Positions 6,001 through 30,000 of a DNA stretch of 64,000 bases are shown one piece after another. This DNA is from Escherichia coli O127:H6 str. E2348/69 (lineage in GTDB: Bacteria; Pseudomonadota; Gammaproteobacteria; Enterobacterales; Enterobacteriaceae), in assembly GCF_000026545.1 (NCBI RefSeq), contig NC_011601.1. One strand, 5' to 3'. Positions within the stretch are counted from its first letter, which is position 1. Every line of letters starts with the position of its first letter. Made by a program: the position numbers.

Positions 6001-9000
6001 ACAGGATTACTGGTCTAACGTTATCAGGGATGACAGGCAGTTTCTGGAGCGTTCAAGAAATCAGTTTAAAGAATATCGTATGGATTGTTTTGATTCGTTT
6101 GTTTTTGGTAAAGAGCAAATAGAATCAAGAAAAGGCCTGGTTATTCTAGACCTGACTAAATAAGACTTAGTTTAGCCCCTGCCATGCAGGGGCTTTTTTT
6201 GTGGTCTGTACAGGCGATCATGTATGGCTATAATAACAGTAAGTTACTACCGGAGACGCCATCATGCAGACCTTCAGTGAAACAGATCTTCGCGATGCGC
6301 AGGCACTGCTGCCCGATTCCGTGCAGCAACTGATTAGCGTGATTGGCTTCCCCGCCCTGACCCGGTTGATTCGTTCTTTTGGTGGCGTGACGTTAAGCGG
6401 TAAAACCGGCGTACACGCCGAACGCACCGGCGGTGTCCATGCCCTGTTACATGACGTGCTCACCGAAGACGAAATCAACAAACTGATCCGCTTTCTTGGC
6501 GGTGCTCCGTTTTACATTCCCCGTTGCGATCATGCGTTACGTGCCCTGCGTAACACCCGTTTTATGGCTGATTTACAGCAGCATGTAAAAGACGGATGCT
6601 CACACCGGCAGGCGCTGGCACTGCTCTGTCCCCGTTACGGCATTTCAGACCGGTACGCATGGCAGCTGATACACCGACGACAAAAACAGACTTCGCTGAA
6701 AAGCCCCACCCAGGTGGGGCTTTTTGATTAATGGGCCTCAGAAAAAAGGAGACACTTATGACCAACTATATGGCACTTGGCGAGTATACGGCCTACTCAG
6801 AGCAGGCCCGGGATGCTGCCGGACGTCGCTTTGCTTATATGAAAAATTTGGCCAGTCAGTTAAACCGAATGGCCGAACAACCGGATATGGTTGTTCAGGA
6901 AGAAGCGTTGCAGTGTGCCATTGCTGACATCATCGCCAGCGAAAACGAGATGCGCGCAGCGATGGAAAAGGCGAACGCCTCTGCTCCGCTTTGTAATAAA
7001 CCTCTTATTACGCCGGATTCTCTTTCCCGCTTCTGATTTATCACCCCGCCGCCGCGGGGTGCTGAACTCCCCCAGCAGTACCCACCACACCAGACCGTTT
7101 ACCCTGTCCACTCAGACCACAAGGCACCTTAAGGGATAGCGCCCTGCAAAAGGCTTTTGTGCCTTTGACAGGGTGTTATTTACGGGCCGTCAGTGGCTCA
7201 GATTTACAGGAGAAACTCATGTCTGAACCCTTATCAGGCGGCGGAGCTGTGGCAGTCACCATCGGTGGTGCCAGTGTGTTTGGCCTTCTCACCAATACCG
7301 ATTTCGGGGTCGTGGTGGGCGCGTTTGCCGGGGCGCTTTTTGTTGTCACTCAGCAGAAAGAAATCCCGGTATGGCGAATGGCTATTCACCTGCTCGTCGC
7401 GTTTGTGGTTGGCGTTCTGGGGGCTGGCGTGGCTGCGTCACTGATGCAGTGGCTGACCCACTACAACGACAAACCGCTTGATGCATTGTGTGCGGTCGGT
7501 GTCTCGGCGTTATCCATCAAGATACTGACCTTTCTTTATCAACAGGAAATTTCATCGCTGTTCGGCCTGTTTTCCAGACTGCGCGGCGGAGGGGGTGGAA
7601 ATGGAAAGTAGCCTTGCCGGTATCGTGAACGTCTGGCTGTGTCTCGCCATTGTGCTGGGGTTGTTTGTGTATCGCCGCCACGGTGCGGCGCATAAACCGA
7701 TGATTACCTGGCTGGCGTACTGGCTGATGCTCGGCTACATCATCATCCCGTTCCGCTGGCTGTCCGGTACATACACGCACTCCAGCTGGCTGGTTGTGGC
7801 GCTGAATCTGGTTTTCTGTGCGCTTATCGTGTGGGCGCACGGGAATTTGTCAAAAATCCTTTCGTTACTGAGGCATCCACATGAAATCAAAAGATGACAT
7901 TTTTGATGAAGTCCTGGGCAAAGAAGGCGGTTACGTCAATCACCCGGACGATAAGGGCGGTCCGACCAAATGGGGCATTACGGAAAAAGTCGCCCGCGCC
8001 CACGGATATCGTGGCGATATGCGCGATTTAACCCGCGAACAGGCGCTGGACATCCTTGAAGCCGATTACTGGTATGGCCCGCGATTTGACCAGATCGCCG
8101 CATTATCCCCTGATATTGCCGCAGAGCTGTGTGATACCGGTGTGAATATGGGGCCAACCGTGGCGTCCAGAATGCTTCAGCGCTGGCTGAATGTGTTCAA
8201 TCTGCGCGGCAGGCTGTACCCGGATATGGACGCAGACGGACGCATCGGGCCTCGTACCATCAGTGCATTGCGCGCCTTCCTGAATAATCGCGGTCAGGAC
8301 GGTGAACGGGTGATGCTGACGGCCCTGAACTGTACGCAGGGGGACCGCTATCTGGAACTGGCAGAGAAACGCGAGGCTAACGAATCGTTTGTTTATGGCT
8401 GGCTGAAGGAGCGCGTGGCGGTATGACGCGTCAGCACTGGACCCACAGAACGCCACGTAAAGCCGCGCGCTGTGTTCTGGCCCTGTTTCTGGTGATGTTG
8501 CTTCCGGTGGGATGCACAGACATTAACAGAGCGGGCCAGCTGTTTGACGCGGCGGCGCAGGTCTGCCGGATTATCGATGGTATCCGGCAGTGTTCACAGA
8601 ACTGATTTTTTGAAGGTCTGACACAGTGAGCATTATCAGATTTACAGAATACAGAGGTTCAGGAGGTGCTGGCGCTGTCATGGTGCTCGCTGAACGCATC
8701 ACCCATTTTTACCGTCAGTACGGTACACATGATGGCACGGTCATTGAACTGGATACCGGGAAAAACGTGTTTGTTCTTGAAAATCCCGACGAAGTTCAGC
8801 GCAGGATTGAACAGGCTCAGAAGGACACTTAATGGCGTGGTCACAGGATATCAGGGACAAAGTCCGTAACGGGTACATCTTTGACCAGCTTCCGCTGGAT
8901 ATCGTCGCCATGAAGTACGCCGTGCCGCACGATACCGCGCGGCGCTGGAAAACGCAGGCGATGAAGAACGGCGACGACTGGGACAAGCTGCGGGCCGCTC

Positions 9001-27000: not shown

Positions 27001-30000
27001 GCCACCTTTGAAGGCAATATCAACCATGTGGGTGGAGTGATTACCTCCGTTGACGTCACCATTAATGGCGTTAAAATCGGAACGCACAAACATCCAACCC
27101 CACACGGCATGTCTGACACGCCGGTTAATTAAGTGCTGAACACCCTCACCTGATTCTGACCTGTCCATGCTGCCAGACTGGCGGCATGGACCAGACGATT
27201 TCACCTGCAACCGGCGACTACGAACGCCGTCGGATTTATACCCTTCATAACGCGGTTTATCTGCGACTGGCGACGCCGCTTGGCAGTTACTGGGCGGATG
27301 CGTTGCTGGGGTCACGCCTGCACGAGCTGAAGCGGGAAAAAGACGTTTCCCGTGTTCATAAGCTTGCGGCGCAGTATGCCAGCCAGGCACTTCAGCCCCT
27401 GCTCGATGACGGGCGGGCAAAATCCATTACCGTTGACACAAAACCGGGGCAGCGCGGCTGGTTGTTGCTGTTAATCACCGTCACGGATAACGCGGGCACA
27501 CCGCAGACGTTTGAACACCCTGTGAGGATTATGTAATGCCGTTTCCTGTTCCGGGCGTTGCTGAAAACACAGAACGCCAGCTACGTGATATCGCTAACGC
27601 CCTGCCGGGCGAAACCATCGACACCGGCGCTGACAGCGATTACCGCATTCGTGCAAATGCCGTATCCGGCGTGGCGGACGGACTGTATATGCATCAGGGG
27701 TGGATACTCCGTCAGGTGTTTCCTGATACGGCAGACCCTGAATATCTGGAGTTGCACTGCCGCACGCGCAATGTTTTTCGTAAAAAAGCAACGGCCTCAT
27801 CCGGTCCGGCAGTGATTACCGGCACACCCGGTAAGACGCTGCCAGCCGGTGCGGAAATTCGTGGTGAAGGTGTCAGCGTGGCCACCGCAGCAGACTGCAC
27901 CGTCGGTGATGAAGGCAGCGCAGAGGTGACGGTAAAAAGCACTGCCACGGGTGCACAGACGAATGCATCCACGACGCAGACGGCAACGCTGGTCAGCCCA
28001 CCTGAAGGCATCAACAGCACGGTGACGATTAAATCCCTGACCGGCGGAACGGACAGGGAAAGCGACGCCGACCTGCTGGCGCGTTATCTGGATATTCTGC
28101 GCAGGCCGCCCGCTGGCGGTAATAAATATGATTACAAACGCTGGGCGCTGGAAGTGGATGGCGTTACGTCTGCGTATGTGGAGCCGTTGCGTCGTGGACT
28201 GGGGACGGTTGATGTGGCCATTACGTCAGCCAATGACCTCCCTTCGCAGGAACTGATTAATGCCGTGCTGGCACATATTGAGGAAGTCCGCCCGGTGACA
28301 GCGAAGGACACGATGGTGCTGGCCCCGACGAAAAAAGCCGTTGATTTCGTTGTCCGGGTAAAAACCAGTGGTCTTACTGTTGAACAGATAAAACCACAGA
28401 TAACTGAAGTTATCACGGATTTTATGAACCGGCTGGAGCCGGGGCAGGAATTAATTATTTCACAACTGGAAACTCAGATTTCATTAATTTCTGGCATCAG
28501 TGACCGGCGAATTATTATGCCGTCAGATAATGTAAAAGCAGTTGTCAATGAATCCACATGGGAGTGGCTGCGTCCGGGGAATATTGATATCCAGCCATTT
28601 CCCCGGGAGAGTTAATACATGAATACGGTTGATTTATTTCGTGCCATGTTACCACCGGTCAGCTATGACCCGAACGGGAAATATATTTCAGCAGAACTGA
28701 ACGCAGAAGCAGCCATTATGGATGAAGTAAAAGCGTCAGCTGCACGAGTGCTTGCATCTGTCACACCATTTTACGCATCCATGACGCTGTCTGACTGGGA
28801 ACGAGTGTATGGAGTAATACCCCGCGACGGTGCCACACAGCAGGAACGCCGAGAAAATATTCTTATAAAGATGGCTGCAACTGGTGGGTTATCTATCCCT
28901 TATTTTAAACAACTTGCAGCCAGCCTCGGGTACACCATAACAATTACTGAACTTCATCCATTCAGAGCGGGGATAAACCGATGTGGTGATCGTCTCTATA
29001 TAACAGATGCCCGATGGATTTGGCAGGTTAATGTCACAGGAAGCAGAACGCCAGCCTACAGATTCAGAACCGGAGTATCTGCTGCCGGGGAGCCGTTACT
29101 TTCCTTTGGTGCCCCTGTACTGGAAGAAACATTTAAAGACCTTAAACCCGCTTTTACTTATTGCCATTTCACATATAAGGAGGAGCAGTAATGCAAAATC
29201 TGATGCCCCCGATAAATACACCGGATCAATTGTTTCATGATGGTGACCCCACTCAGGGGATAGAAGGAACCCTCGTGACTGCTGGTTATTTAAACAATCA
29301 GCAGGGGGCAACCCGTGATTTACAGCAGGAACTCCTTAATGTTCTTGGTGGTGCACATATTCAACCTGACCCCAAAAAAACGGATCAGCTACTTACCGCG
29401 CTTCGCGCGTTGCTGTTAAGCCGCAAGAATCCGTTTGGCGATATCAAATTGGACGGCACGGTGCAAAAGGCTCTCGAAAACCTTGGTTTGGGAGAAGGTG
29501 CTCCAGCTATTGGCGTTCCGTTCTTCTGGCCGTCCGCCGCAATGCCAGATACCGTAATCGAAAGCTGGTCCGGCATGGTGTTTTTGAAGTTCAACGGCGC
29601 GAAATTCTCTGCCACTGATTACCCTGTGCTGGCAAAAGTGTTTCCTTCGCTGGTATTACCTGAAGCCCGCGGTGACTTCATTCGTATCTGGGATGATGGG
29701 CGAGGGGCGGACAGTGGGCGAGCATTATTAAGCTGGCAGGCAGCAACATCTTTATCGCAATTTGGTGGTAATTATCCAGAAGGGTCCGGCCATGCGATTG
29801 CTGATTACGATGGAATATCAGCACACGAGCCAGGTTTCTCTCGATTTCAGTACACCAGTAACTCAGTAGGAGATGGTGTTAATTTTGTTGCTGTCAGACC
29901 GCGAAATATTGCATTTAACTTTCTGGTGAGGGCTAAATAATGAAACCTGTTTTTGATGAAAATGGACTGGCTACAGTGCCGGGTGATATGCGTTGTTTTT

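What the first reader, a model, noticed from the sequence alone, without database searches (positions are those of the whole stretch)
7042..27150. Recurring dyad element GTGCTGAAC(A/T)CCC(T/C)C upstream of three late gene blocks
Near-identical copies lie upstream of the lysis cassette (about 7056-7073), the protease/scaffold gene (about 15214-15240, as the perfect dyad AGGGTG-ctgaa-CACCCT) and the gp46-like baseplate gene (about 27133-27147). This parallels Mu, where the C activator binds dyad sites at several late promoters. The single Mor/C-family protein here is the obvious candidate binder. I scanned by eye and may have missed further copies.
Basis: partly seen in the sequence, partly recalled or inferred. 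Interest (0 to 1): 0.55.

Follow-up and report, generated by a model that had tools for sequence, protein, structure and literature searches.

The report
Late-gene promoters of a Mu-like prophage
The repeated motif marks three activator-dependent late promoters of a Mu-like prophage in E. coli E2348/69; the same design recurs, with a phage-specific box, across many Mu-like phages, and two of the three promoters probably make mRNAs that start right at the start codon.

Summary
GTGCTGAACWCCCYC occurs exactly three times, all on the + strand and all intergenic: before the lysis genes, protease I and gp46. About 0.5 matches are expected by chance even at two mismatches.

The window is a Mu-like prophage in eutC of E. 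coli E2348/69, with one Mor/C-family activator gene (6264-6731).

Six relatives were checked genome by genome and about 150 further loci were sampled; those examined carry their own version of the box at the same junctions. Anchored on the invariant GAA, a -10-like hexamer (nAnnnT) lies at +36 in 13 of 14 sites (P about 2e-15).

The conserved symmetry is TGAA-N4-TTCA, centred at -43.5 from the predicted start. That is the geometry of Mu C sites.

The box base 5' of CTGAA partitions with a recognition-helix residue of the activator.

The start codons of I and gp46 lie 6-7 nt after the hexamer and have no Shine-Dalgarno sequence. This module is found in 52 of 53 distinct gp46 upstream regions, so leaderless late mRNAs are predicted.

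This is a new variant of a known kind. All evidence is comparative; no transcription starts or binding were measured.

The parts
6264..6731 (+). Gene for the only Mor/C-family activator of the prophage (155 aa), the candidate binder of the boxes. Its C-terminus, QVGLF, resembles a clamp-binding motif.
   Evidence: PHROG 836 'late transcriptional activator', E 3.5e-42. Pfam Mor PF08765, E 3.3e-6. A profile search of all prophage ORFs finds no second member. The clamp-binding motif definition is from PMC12867686.
6174..6234 (+). Terminator-like hairpin with T-run (6174-6194), then a sigma-70-like promoter TGTACA-16-TATAAT (6207-6234), upstream of the activator gene. This is the presumed source of activator expression.
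   Evidence: the only promoter-like hit in 6000-16000; sequence read. Function is inferred.
7056..7076 (+). Box 1 (lysis promoter): GGGGTGCTGAACTCCCCCAGC. Invariant GAA at 7064-7066; family dyad TGAA 7063-7066 / CCCA 7071-7074.
   Evidence: Conserved in all relatives, while the DNA upstream of it is a different allele.
7100..7105 (+). -10-like hexamer TACCCT of the lysis promoter. Predicted transcript start is about 7110-7114.
   Evidence: Fixed offset +36 from GAA. TAnnnT is kept as TATCTT / TATCCT in diverged relatives. The start is predicted, not measured.
7134..7181 (+). Long hairpin inside the predicted 107-nt lysis leader. Its role is unknown and it may not belong to the promoter function.
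   Evidence: Fold. A compensatory change is seen in relatives and one relative has it deleted.
15214..15234 (+). Box 2 (protease/head-tail promoter): AGGGTGCTGAACACCCTCCAC. GAA at 15222-15224; family dyad TGAA 15221-15224 / CTCC 15229-15232.
15258..15263 (+). -10-like hexamer CATCAT. The predicted start 15270/15271 coincides with the ATG of protease I (15271), and there is no SD.
   Evidence: The relative L019 has CATGAT. Kleb and VW-6B have the same 48-49 nt from box to ATG.
27133..27150 (+). Box 3 (gp46/baseplate-wedge promoter): GTGCTGAACACCCTCACC, starting 1 nt after the stop codon of baseplate V. GAA at 27138-27140; family dyad TGAA 27137-27140 / CTCA 27145-27148.
27174..27179 (+). -10-like hexamer CAGACT. 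The predicted start 27186 is the A of the gp46 ATG, and there is no SD.
7219..15061 (+). First late block: two holins, endolysin, DUF1804, methyltransferase, terminase, portal, F and G.
   Evidence: RefSeq annotation; PHROGs.
15271..27132 (+). Second late block: protease/scaffold, major head, connector, sheath, tube, tape measure, N-, P- and V-like genes.
27186..30533 (+). Third late block: gp46, gp47, gp48-like, tail fibre and tail fibre assembly.

Best explanation
The three copies are the activator-binding boxes of three late promoters of a Mu-like, Sp18-type prophage.

Inferred mechanism. The single Mor/C-family protein (6264-6731) binds each box as a dimer or higher oligomer. The box covers about -56 to -36, with invariant GAA at -48..-46 and TC at -40/-39, and its symmetry TGAA-N4-TTCA is centred at -43.5. 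It overlaps a poor -35. Binding lets sigma-70 RNA polymerase use weak -10 hexamers (TACCCT, CATCAT, CAGACT) placed 36 bp downstream of the GAA. This works like Mu C at Plys, PI, PP and Pmom. The C-terminal QVGLF suggests coupling to the sliding clamp, as shown for Mu C.

The promoters head three late blocks: lysis plus head/packaging, protease through baseplate V, and gp46 through tail fibres. The transcripts for protease I and gp46 are predicted to begin at or within 1-2 nt of the start codon, that is, to be leaderless.

Shown here: the occurrence, placement and conservation of the boxes, the fixed spacing, the absence of SD, and the association of box variant with activator variant. Inferred: binding, activator dependence, the actual start sites, and leaderless translation.
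For: - Three exact copies, all on the + strand and intergenic, far above chance.
- A plain sigma-70 scan finds no promoter at these sites, as expected for activator-dependent promoters.
- Klebsiella ST405-OXA48phi1.1, Pseudomonas VW-6B, Haemophilus SuMu, Mannheimia 3927AP2 and Pseudomonas MP22 have activators 31-41% identical by tblastn. Each has its own recurring box at the same junctions.
- Anchored on GAA, nAnnnT lies at +36 in 13 of 14 sites and at +37 in the other. No other offset exceeds 5 of 14. Binomial P is about 2e-15.
- 68 of 74 distinct activator loci have exactly one CTGAA-N5-YC plus nAnnnT module within 740 nt downstream of the activator gene, against 0.009 expected.
- The consensus of 88 instances is ccACTGAACCCCtTCAnC, with a weak -35-like cTGAtt. 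The dyad centre at -43.5 equals that of Mu C (PMC2582627).
- The helix residue after SDR partitions with the base 5' of CTGAA: F/T with A in 47, Y/Q/I with G in 21.
- Anchoring only on the gp46 start codon, 50 of 53 distinct upstream regions have a -10-like hexamer starting at -14..-12, and 49 of those lack an SD. The two labelled CTG fit after a 6-nt start correction. The single region with neither feature has a canonical SD.
- I and gp46 are among 7 of 38 prophage genes without an SD.
- In four relatives the lysis promoter's predicted start falls inside the 5' arm of a strong upstream hairpin, which in three of them is followed by a T-run and looks like the upstream operon's terminator. This makes sense only if transcription starts there.
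- The C-terminal QxxLF is conserved (PMC12867686).
Against: - No experiment: no mapped 5' ends, no binding data, no induction data for this prophage, and no published start sites found for any relative.
- The -10 hexamers are weak, so start positions are extrapolated from spacing rules.
- Site 1 in this window has CC rather than TC at -40/-39.
- The gp46 start in the Klebsiella phage is GTG, a poor initiator on leaderless mRNA in E. coli.
- In SuMu and Mannheimia the protease gene has a leader with GAGG, so the leaderless design is not universal for I.
- The association between helix residue and box base is confounded by shared ancestry.
- The consensus positions CTGAA, Y and C were imposed by the search pattern.
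Confidence: 0.85

Rival explanations
1. The boxes are late-promoter elements, but they are recognised by a factor other than the Mor/C-family protein. Candidates are another phage product (the gp16/GemA-like protein, ORF 5687-6163, or ORF 6758-7036) or a host protein.
For: Nothing here shows binding. ORF 5687-6163 (158 aa) has no recognisable family and sits where Mu carries mor. ORF 6758-7036 lies between the activator gene and box 1.
Against: VW-6B, SuMu and Mannheimia 3927AP2 have no gene between the activator gene and the lysis box. ORF 6758-7036 exists as two diverged alleles next to the same box. The Mor/C-family gene is the one regulator always adjacent, and its recognition helix partitions with the box variant. 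The geometry is that of Mu C (PMC2582627).
Confidence: 0.07
2. The motif acts at the RNA level. The hairpin GGGUG-cugaa-CACCC in read-through transcripts would serve as a processing, antitermination or translational control signal, as the Com target does in Mu mom mRNA.
For: Sites 1 and 2 can form a 5-6 bp stem with a 5-nt loop. The genes after sites 2 and 3 lack an SD and so need some special route to translation.
Against: The left arm is absent at site 3 and in the Klebsiella-type boxes. The arms match at 5 or more of 6 positions in only 10 of 88 instances. What is conserved is an asymmetric DNA core plus a -10-like hexamer at fixed spacing. There is no Rfam match. If transcription starts where predicted, the motif is not in the late RNA at all.
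Confidence: 0.04
3. The copies are conserved junction sequences at module boundaries. They would be kept because they serve as recombination joints between mosaic phage modules, with no regulatory role.
For: At site 1, similarity between relatives resumes exactly at the motif while the upstream gene is a different allele. All three sites are at module borders.
Against: This does not explain the fixed spacing to a -10-like hexamer across genera, the strand bias, the lineage-specific box sequences, or the link to the activator variant. Promoters at module borders would give the same mosaic pattern as a by-product.
Confidence: 0.03

Closest known systems
Phage Mu C-dependent late promoters (Plys, PI, PP, Pmom)
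   Same: A Mor/C-family activator gene lies just upstream of the lysis genes. There are several copies of an imperfect dyad box centred at -43.5, overlapping a poor -35, with a recognisable -10. The boxes sit at the heads of the lysis/head, protease/tail and baseplate blocks. A C-rich tract lies in or next to the box. The activator has a C-terminal clamp-binding-like motif (PMC2582627, PMC4461284, PMC12867686).
   Different: The box sequence is TGAA-N4-TTCA (here GTGCTGAACACCCTC), not TTAT-N5-6-ATAA. The activator is only about 29% identical to C in the alignment and carries a ~25-residue insert. There is one activator rather than the Mor-then-C cascade. The third promoter lies between V and gp46, not inside N. 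There is no mom promoter. The I and gp46 start codons lie at the predicted +1, whereas Mu I has a leader and an RBS.
Phage Mu Mor-dependent middle promoter Pm
   Same: Same protein family, and a dyad box just upstream of a non-optimal -35 (bioRxiv 10.1101/2025.05.02.651988; PMC4287176).
   Different: Pm is a single site that drives the C operon. Here the activator gene is preceded by a terminator and a sigma-70-like promoter with a perfect TATAAT and no box.
Single-activator Mu-like phages (SuMu, Mannheimia 3927AP2, FluMu group; E. coli O157 Sp18 type)
   Same: Same genome layout, a single mor-type gene next to lys, and a gap between V and gp46. The literature notes that these phages lack C and that their late regulation is unknown (PMC4553209). 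E. coli Mu-like prophages are described as similar to Sp18 (PMC10132054).
   Different: The genome papers I read for SuMu and the Mannheimia phages (PMC3447690, PMC4553209) describe no late-promoter box, and my library searches turned up no paper that does. Boxes differ by lineage: GTGGAAGT.. in Pasteurellaceae, CCACTGAAsCCC in Klebsiella-type phages, GTGCTGAACACCC here.
Leaderless phage mRNAs such as lambda cI from PRM (from general knowledge, not tested here)
   Same: The start codon lies at the 5' end of the transcript and there is no SD.
   Different: Here it is predicted for late structural genes under an activator-dependent promoter, and it is conserved across many phages. It has not been demonstrated.

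Membership tests
Mor/C-dependent late promoter system (phage Mu type) | A Mor/C-family (Pfam PF08765) activator is encoded upstream of the late region. | tested here: met
   Window 6264-6731: Pfam Mor E 3.3e-6; PHROG 836 E 3.5e-42.
Mor/C-dependent late promoter system (phage Mu type) | Several copies of a conserved box at the heads of late operons, all in the direction of transcription. | tested here: met
   Three + strand intergenic copies before lysis, I and gp46. The same holds in five other phages.
Mor/C-dependent late promoter system (phage Mu type) | A recognisable -10 hexamer but no consensus -35. | tested here: met
   nAnnnT at +36 from GAA in 13 of 14 sites. Only a weak cTGAtt at -36..-31. 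The sigma-70 consensus scan misses all three sites.
Mor/C-dependent late promoter system (phage Mu type) | An imperfect dyad box centred at about -43.5. | tested here: met
   The centre of TGAA-N4-TTCA is -43.5 when -12 is set at GAA+36. This rests on predicted, not mapped, starts. The Mu value is from PMC2582627.
Mor/C-dependent late promoter system (phage Mu type) | The box matches the Mu C consensus TTAT-N5-6-ATAA. | tested here: not met
   The boxes read GTGCTGAACWCCCYC; Mu's read CATAACCCC / TTATGCCCCAATAA (PMC12867686). These are therefore not Mu C sites themselves but the sites of a diverged family member.
Mor/C-dependent late promoter system (phage Mu type) | Two successive activators: Mor for the middle promoter, C for the late promoters. 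| tested here: not met
   Only one family member is present in the prophage; the next best ORF has E 1.5. ORF 5687-6163 has no Pfam or PHROG match.
Mor/C-dependent late promoter system (phage Mu type) | The activator binds the box and is required for transcription. | not testable with these tools
   Only indirect support: the box variant follows the activator variant.
Mor/C-dependent late promoter system (phage Mu type) | A clamp-binding motif (QL[SD]LF type) in the activator. | tested here: met
   The C-terminus is QVGLF here; relatives have QSVLF, QATLF, QSTLF and QLDLL. The motif definition is from PMC12867686. The N-terminal motif is not evident (TDLRD).
Leaderless mRNA | No Shine-Dalgarno sequence upstream of the start codon. 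| tested here: met
   I (15271) and gp46 (27186) lack an SD, whereas 31 of 38 prophage genes have one. 51 of 53 distinct gp46 upstream regions lack an SD.
Leaderless mRNA | The transcript 5' end coincides with the start codon. | not testable with these tools
   Predicted only. The hexamer ends 6-7 nt before the ATG in this window and in 52 of 53 gp46 regions.
Leaderless mRNA | An AUG start codon (needed for efficient leaderless initiation in E. coli; general knowledge). | tested here: met
   ATG at 15271 and 27186. ATG in 51 of 53 gp46 regions, and in the other two after a 6-nt correction. The Klebsiella phage record has GTG.

The most novel reading that the evidence does not exclude
A large group of Mu-like phages, including Sp18-type E. 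coli prophages, Klebsiella, Pseudomonas and Pasteurellaceae phages, runs a two-tier cascade with one Mor/C-type activator. Its promoters are built so that the transcript starts on the start codon itself. This yields leaderless mRNAs for the protease/scaffold and baseplate-wedge blocks, so those genes cannot be translated efficiently from read-through RNA and depend strictly on the activator. In several of these phages the lysis promoter is nested in the terminator of the activator operon, so that only transcripts started at the late +1 escape termination. The activator's recognition-helix residue after SDR sets the base read 5' of CTGAA.
Probability: 0.5. Interest if true: 0.6.

Novelty: new variant of a known kind. 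Interest (0 to 1): 0.42.

Why it matters
It gives a concrete, testable map of late transcription for a common class of Mu-like prophages. DNA matching the 10-kb query was found in 148 of 5426 complete E. coli genomes, 53 of them over at least 80% of its length. The published genome papers I read describe the late regulation of related single-activator phages as unknown.

It also defines a family-wide promoter grammar: box at -43.5, -10 at a fixed distance, and the start codon at +1. That grammar can be used to annotate late operons and correct start codons in related phages.

It offers natural activator/box pairs for studying how Mor/C proteins read DNA. It also raises the possibility that leaderless translation and terminator-nested promoters are used to make structural and lysis genes strictly dependent on the late activator.

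The basic principle, an activator box at late promoters as in Mu, is not new.

Tried and rejected
- Megablast of 6000-16000 against the phage collection found no close phage, only an 82.8% match over 5% of the query to two Yersinia phages. Identity came from the E. coli genomes instead.
- I first looked for a -10 in the CAGTACCC shared by sites 1 and 2 just after the box. I rejected it because the spacing to the box is too short for any known geometry and site 3 lacks it.
The family comparison moved the symmetry axis to -43.5.
- I tested ORF 5687-6163 as a possible second, Mor-like activator. Pfam, PHROGs and a family profile found nothing.
- A loose composite scan (TG..GAA-N5-YC plus nAnnnT) gave extra hits inside terL (10465) and at 21053 and 21245. 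Their boxes lack the CCCC/TCA features, so I judged them chance.
- The search for related loci with the seven-protein alignment that included Mu Mor and C failed for lack of a conserved stretch. It worked after I dropped the Mu proteins.
- Literature searches for mapped late starts or described boxes in SuMu, Mannheimia, Sp18, D3112, JBD30 or DMS3-type phages found none.
- Rfam found no known RNA family in 1-32000.
- One script had a logic error that produced an empty table; I repeated it correctly.

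
Full report
**Where the window comes from.** Bases 6000-16000 are 100% identical to the E. coli O127:H6 E2348/69 chromosome. The RefSeq annotation of window 1-36000 shows a Mu-like prophage. The window starts inside the MuB-like ATPase gene. An early region follows, with a gp16/GemA-like gene at 5292-5690. Next come a Mor-family gene (6264-6731), two holins and an endolysin (7219-8426), terminase, portal, F and G (to 15061), and protease I (15271). Head and tail genes run on to baseplate V (26482-27132), followed by gp46 (27186), gp47, gp48-like and tail fibre genes (to about 31.4 kb). 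The prophage interrupts eutC. No sequenced phage in the collection is close at the DNA level. DNA matching the 10-kb query was found in 148 of 5426 complete E. coli genomes, in 53 of them over at least 80% of its length. The literature calls E. coli Mu-like prophages of this kind Sp18-like (PMC10132054).

**The observation.** GTGCTGAACWCCCYC occurs exactly at 7059-7073, 15217-15231 and 27133-27147, always on the + strand. Allowing two mismatches adds one weak match at 3774. The chance expectation is 0.47, and none of 100 shuffles reached four. At three mismatches the count falls into the chance range. The 10-mer core CTGAACNCCC occurs three times on the + strand of all 64 kb, only at these sites. 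It occurs once on the - strand inside a gene, where about 0.5 are expected. All three sites are intergenic and lie directly upstream of the lysis block, protease I and gp46. The perfect dyad AGGGTG-ctgaa-CACCCT is present at 15214-15230. Site 1 has one arm mismatch here, and site 3 keeps only GTG of the left arm.

**Close relatives.** Nineteen viral contigs encode an activator 92-100% identical to the one here. In each, the core occurs only downstream of the activator gene and upstream of the protease gene. At site 1 the upstream gene exists as two diverged alleles, and similarity resumes exactly at the motif. Downstream of the boxes, a hexamer at a fixed distance keeps its second and sixth bases while the others vary. 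At site 1 it reads TACCCT, TATCTT or TATCCT, and at site 2 CATCAT or CATGAT.

**Distant relatives.** tblastn with the activator finds phages at 31-41% identity. I examined five: Klebsiella ST405-OXA48phi1.1, Pseudomonas VW-6B, Haemophilus SuMu, Mannheimia 3927AP2 and Pseudomonas MP22. Each has gaps at the same junctions and its own recurring box there.

- Klebsiella: ACCCACTGAAGCCCnTCAA
- VW-6B: GTGACGAACCCCGTCCCC
- SuMu: GTGGAAGTnnTTCC
- Mannheimia: GTGGAAGTnnCTCCCCGTTACTC
- MP22: cagYCGTTGAA

I anchored the 14 sites of the first five genomes on the invariant GAA. The hexamer at +36..+41 fits nAnnnT in 13 of them, and the 14th fits at +37. No other offset between +10 and +59 exceeds 5 of 14. 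With a background frequency of 0.06, the binomial P is about 2e-15. An A at position 2 and a T at position 6 are the hallmark of a sigma-70 -10 element. A plain sigma-70 consensus scan of the window finds no promoter at the three sites, which fits promoters that need an activator.

**Geometry.** Setting the hexamer at -12..-7 puts GAA at -48..-46 and a nearly invariant TC at -40/-39. I then sampled 80 loci with activator relatives and 80 with gp46 relatives. Of 74 distinct activator loci, 68 have exactly one CTGAA-N5-YC plus nAnnnT module within 740 nt downstream of the gene. Shuffles give 0.009 per locus. The 88 distinct instances give the consensus ccACTGAACCCCtTCAnC. Positions that the search pattern did not impose are still informative: CCCC at -45..-42, A at -38 and C at -36. 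A weak -35-like cTGAtt lies at -36..-31. The family-level symmetry is TGAA(-49..-46)-N4-TTCA(-41..-38), centred at -43.5. Mu C binds a 16-bp imperfect dyad centred at -43.5 that overlaps the -35 region, at promoters with a -10 but no -35 (PMC2582627). Its consensus is TTAT-N5-6-ATAA (PMC12867686). The geometry therefore matches Mu while the sequence does not. It holds at five or more of six positions in only 10 of 88 instances, all of the E. coli type, and the Klebsiella-type box is not that dyad at all.

**Who binds.** The prophage has one Mor/C-family ORF (Pfam Mor; PHROG 'late transcriptional activator'). A profile built from seven family members finds no second one, with the next best ORF at E 1.5. 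ORF 5687-6163, at the position of Mu mor, matches nothing. In VW-6B, SuMu and Mannheimia the activator gene is immediately followed by the lysis box. Across the sampled loci, the recognition-helix residue after the conserved SDR partitions with the base 5' of CTGAA: F or T goes with A in 47, and Y, Q or I goes with G in 21. This fits direct readout by the activator, but shared ancestry confounds it. The protein ends in QVGLF, and relatives end in QSVLF, QATLF and QSTLF. These resemble the C-terminal clamp-binding motif shown to be required for Mu C function and reported across the family (PMC12867686). The Mannheimia phage paper notes that these phages have only mor, lack C, and need experimental work on late regulation (PMC4553209). 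The SuMu paper mentions no promoters (PMC3447690).

**Differences from Mu.** There is one activator, not two. The activator gene follows a terminator-like hairpin (6174-6194) and a sigma-70-like promoter with a perfect TATAAT (6207-6234), and it has no box. The third late promoter lies between V and gp46. Mu has no gap there and places PP inside gene N.

**Predicted leaderless transcripts.** The start codons of I and gp46 lie 49 and 48 nt from the GAA, which is 7 and 6 nt after the hexamer, and neither has an SD. By contrast, 31 of 38 prophage genes do have one. The same 48-nt distance to the gp46 start codon holds in the Klebsiella phage, SuMu and Mannheimia 3927AP2. A distance of 48-49 nt to the I start codon holds in the Klebsiella phage and VW-6B. 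I also anchored on the gp46 start codon alone. Of 53 distinct upstream regions, 50 have a -10-like hexamer starting at -14..-12, and 49 of those lack an SD. The two labelled CTG fit once the start is moved 6 nt upstream to an ATG. The single region with neither feature has a canonical SD, CAGGAGcagtaATG. This mutual exclusion is the strongest argument that transcription starts at or within 1-2 nt of the start codon. It remains a prediction. The Klebsiella record has GTG at that position, and in SuMu and Mannheimia the protease gene has a leader with GAGG.

**Lysis leaders.** In the Klebsiella phage, VW-6B, SuMu and Mannheimia 3927AP2, a strong hairpin (-17 to -29 kcal/mol) lies between the lysis -10 hexamer and the lysis start codon. 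In the last three a T-run follows it. The predicted +1, an A in every case, falls inside the 5' arm, so RNA started there folds at only about -1 kcal/mol locally. The simplest reading is that this hairpin is the terminator of the activator operon, and that late transcripts escape it because they start inside it. The E. coli window is different. The predicted start is near 7112, the leader is 107 nt with an AGGAG at 7208-7212, and a long hairpin (7134-7181) lies wholly inside the leader with no U-run. Relatives show one compensatory change in it, and one relative lacks it. I cannot say what it does.

**Rivals.**
The left arm is not conserved, the conserved features are an asymmetric core plus a spaced -10, and Rfam finds nothing.
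- A different binding factor cannot be excluded without experiments, but no other regulator is consistently adjacent.
- A pure recombination-joint role does not explain the spacing, the strand bias or the link to the activator.

**Verdict.** These are the late promoters of a Mu-like prophage, built like Mu C-dependent promoters but with a different box, one activator, a differently placed third promoter, and probably leaderless transcripts for two blocks. That makes it a new variant of a known kind. I found no published description of these boxes in the library searched. All functional statements rest on comparative sequence evidence.

Noticed in passing
window 7134-7181: A long hairpin lies inside the predicted 107-nt leader of the lysis operon, with no U-run after it. 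Relatives show a compensatory change (cccTgc/gacAggg to cccGgc/gacCggg), and one relative (L020) lacks it by deletion. Its function is unknown.
   Followed up: partly
L022 9306-9346; L023 9018-9050; L024 10085-10120; L025 9611-9652: In four related phages the predicted late +1 of the lysis promoter lies inside the 5' arm of a strong hairpin, which a T-run follows in three of them. Read-through RNA would form the hairpin, and where the T-run is present presumably terminate, but late transcripts could not form it. This is a promoter nested in a terminator.
   Followed up: partly
window 15156-15176: An AT-rich palindrome, TTTTTAAAAGGGTTTTAAAAA, sits in the G-I gap. Similar tracts occur at the same place in the Klebsiella, SuMu and Mannheimia phages, and next to the annotated gyrase cut site of Mu. 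It is probably the counterpart of Mu's central strong gyrase site.
   Followed up: partly
window 6174-6234: The activator gene is preceded by a terminator-like hairpin with T-run and a sigma-70-like promoter with a perfect TATAAT (TGTACA-16-TATAAT), not by a Mor-type box. How this promoter is kept silent in the lysogen is unclear.
   Followed up: no
window 6758-7036 and L003-L021: The small ORF between the activator gene and box 1 exists as two strongly diverged alleles among close relatives. The mosaic boundary falls exactly at the box.
   Followed up: partly
window 27180-27185; L026 9621-9626 and 18645-18649; many of L027-L106: The 6 nt between the -10-like hexamer and the start codon are GGCGGC or GGCAGC in phages from different genera. 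This looks like a conserved G+C-rich discriminator, and its meaning was not examined.
   Followed up: no
L026 18650 vs 18778; L023 9051 vs 9102; L024 18534; L022 8343-8738: Several database annotations look wrong. The MP22 protease probably starts at ATG 18650. The VW-6B lysozyme probably starts at ATG 9051. The SuMu protease probably starts after the GAGG downstream of the annotated ATG. The Klebsiella phage record does not annotate its Mor-family gene.
   Followed up: partly
window 30505-31660 and 33528-36000: The right end of the prophage has inverted tail-fibre and assembly genes, the remains of an invertible segment, but no invertase or mom-like gene before the truncated eutC. eutA is also a pseudogene, next to an ISEc13 transposase.
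   Followed up: no
L051, L053, L057, L064-L066, L069, L070, L077, L079, L080, L084, L086, L090, L102, L106: More distant gp46 relatives carry other box classes at the same junction (cTTAAACC-N5-GAAA, or ATTAAAC-N5-RGAAAGAC). They still have a -10-like hexamer 6-8 nt before an SD-less ATG. Their activators were not retrieved.
   Followed up: no
window 10465, 21053, 21245: Loose matches to the composite pattern (GAA-N5-YC plus nAnnnT at +36) lie inside coding regions (terL and a tail gene). Their boxes lack the conserved CCCC/TCA features, so they are probably chance.
   Followed up: partly
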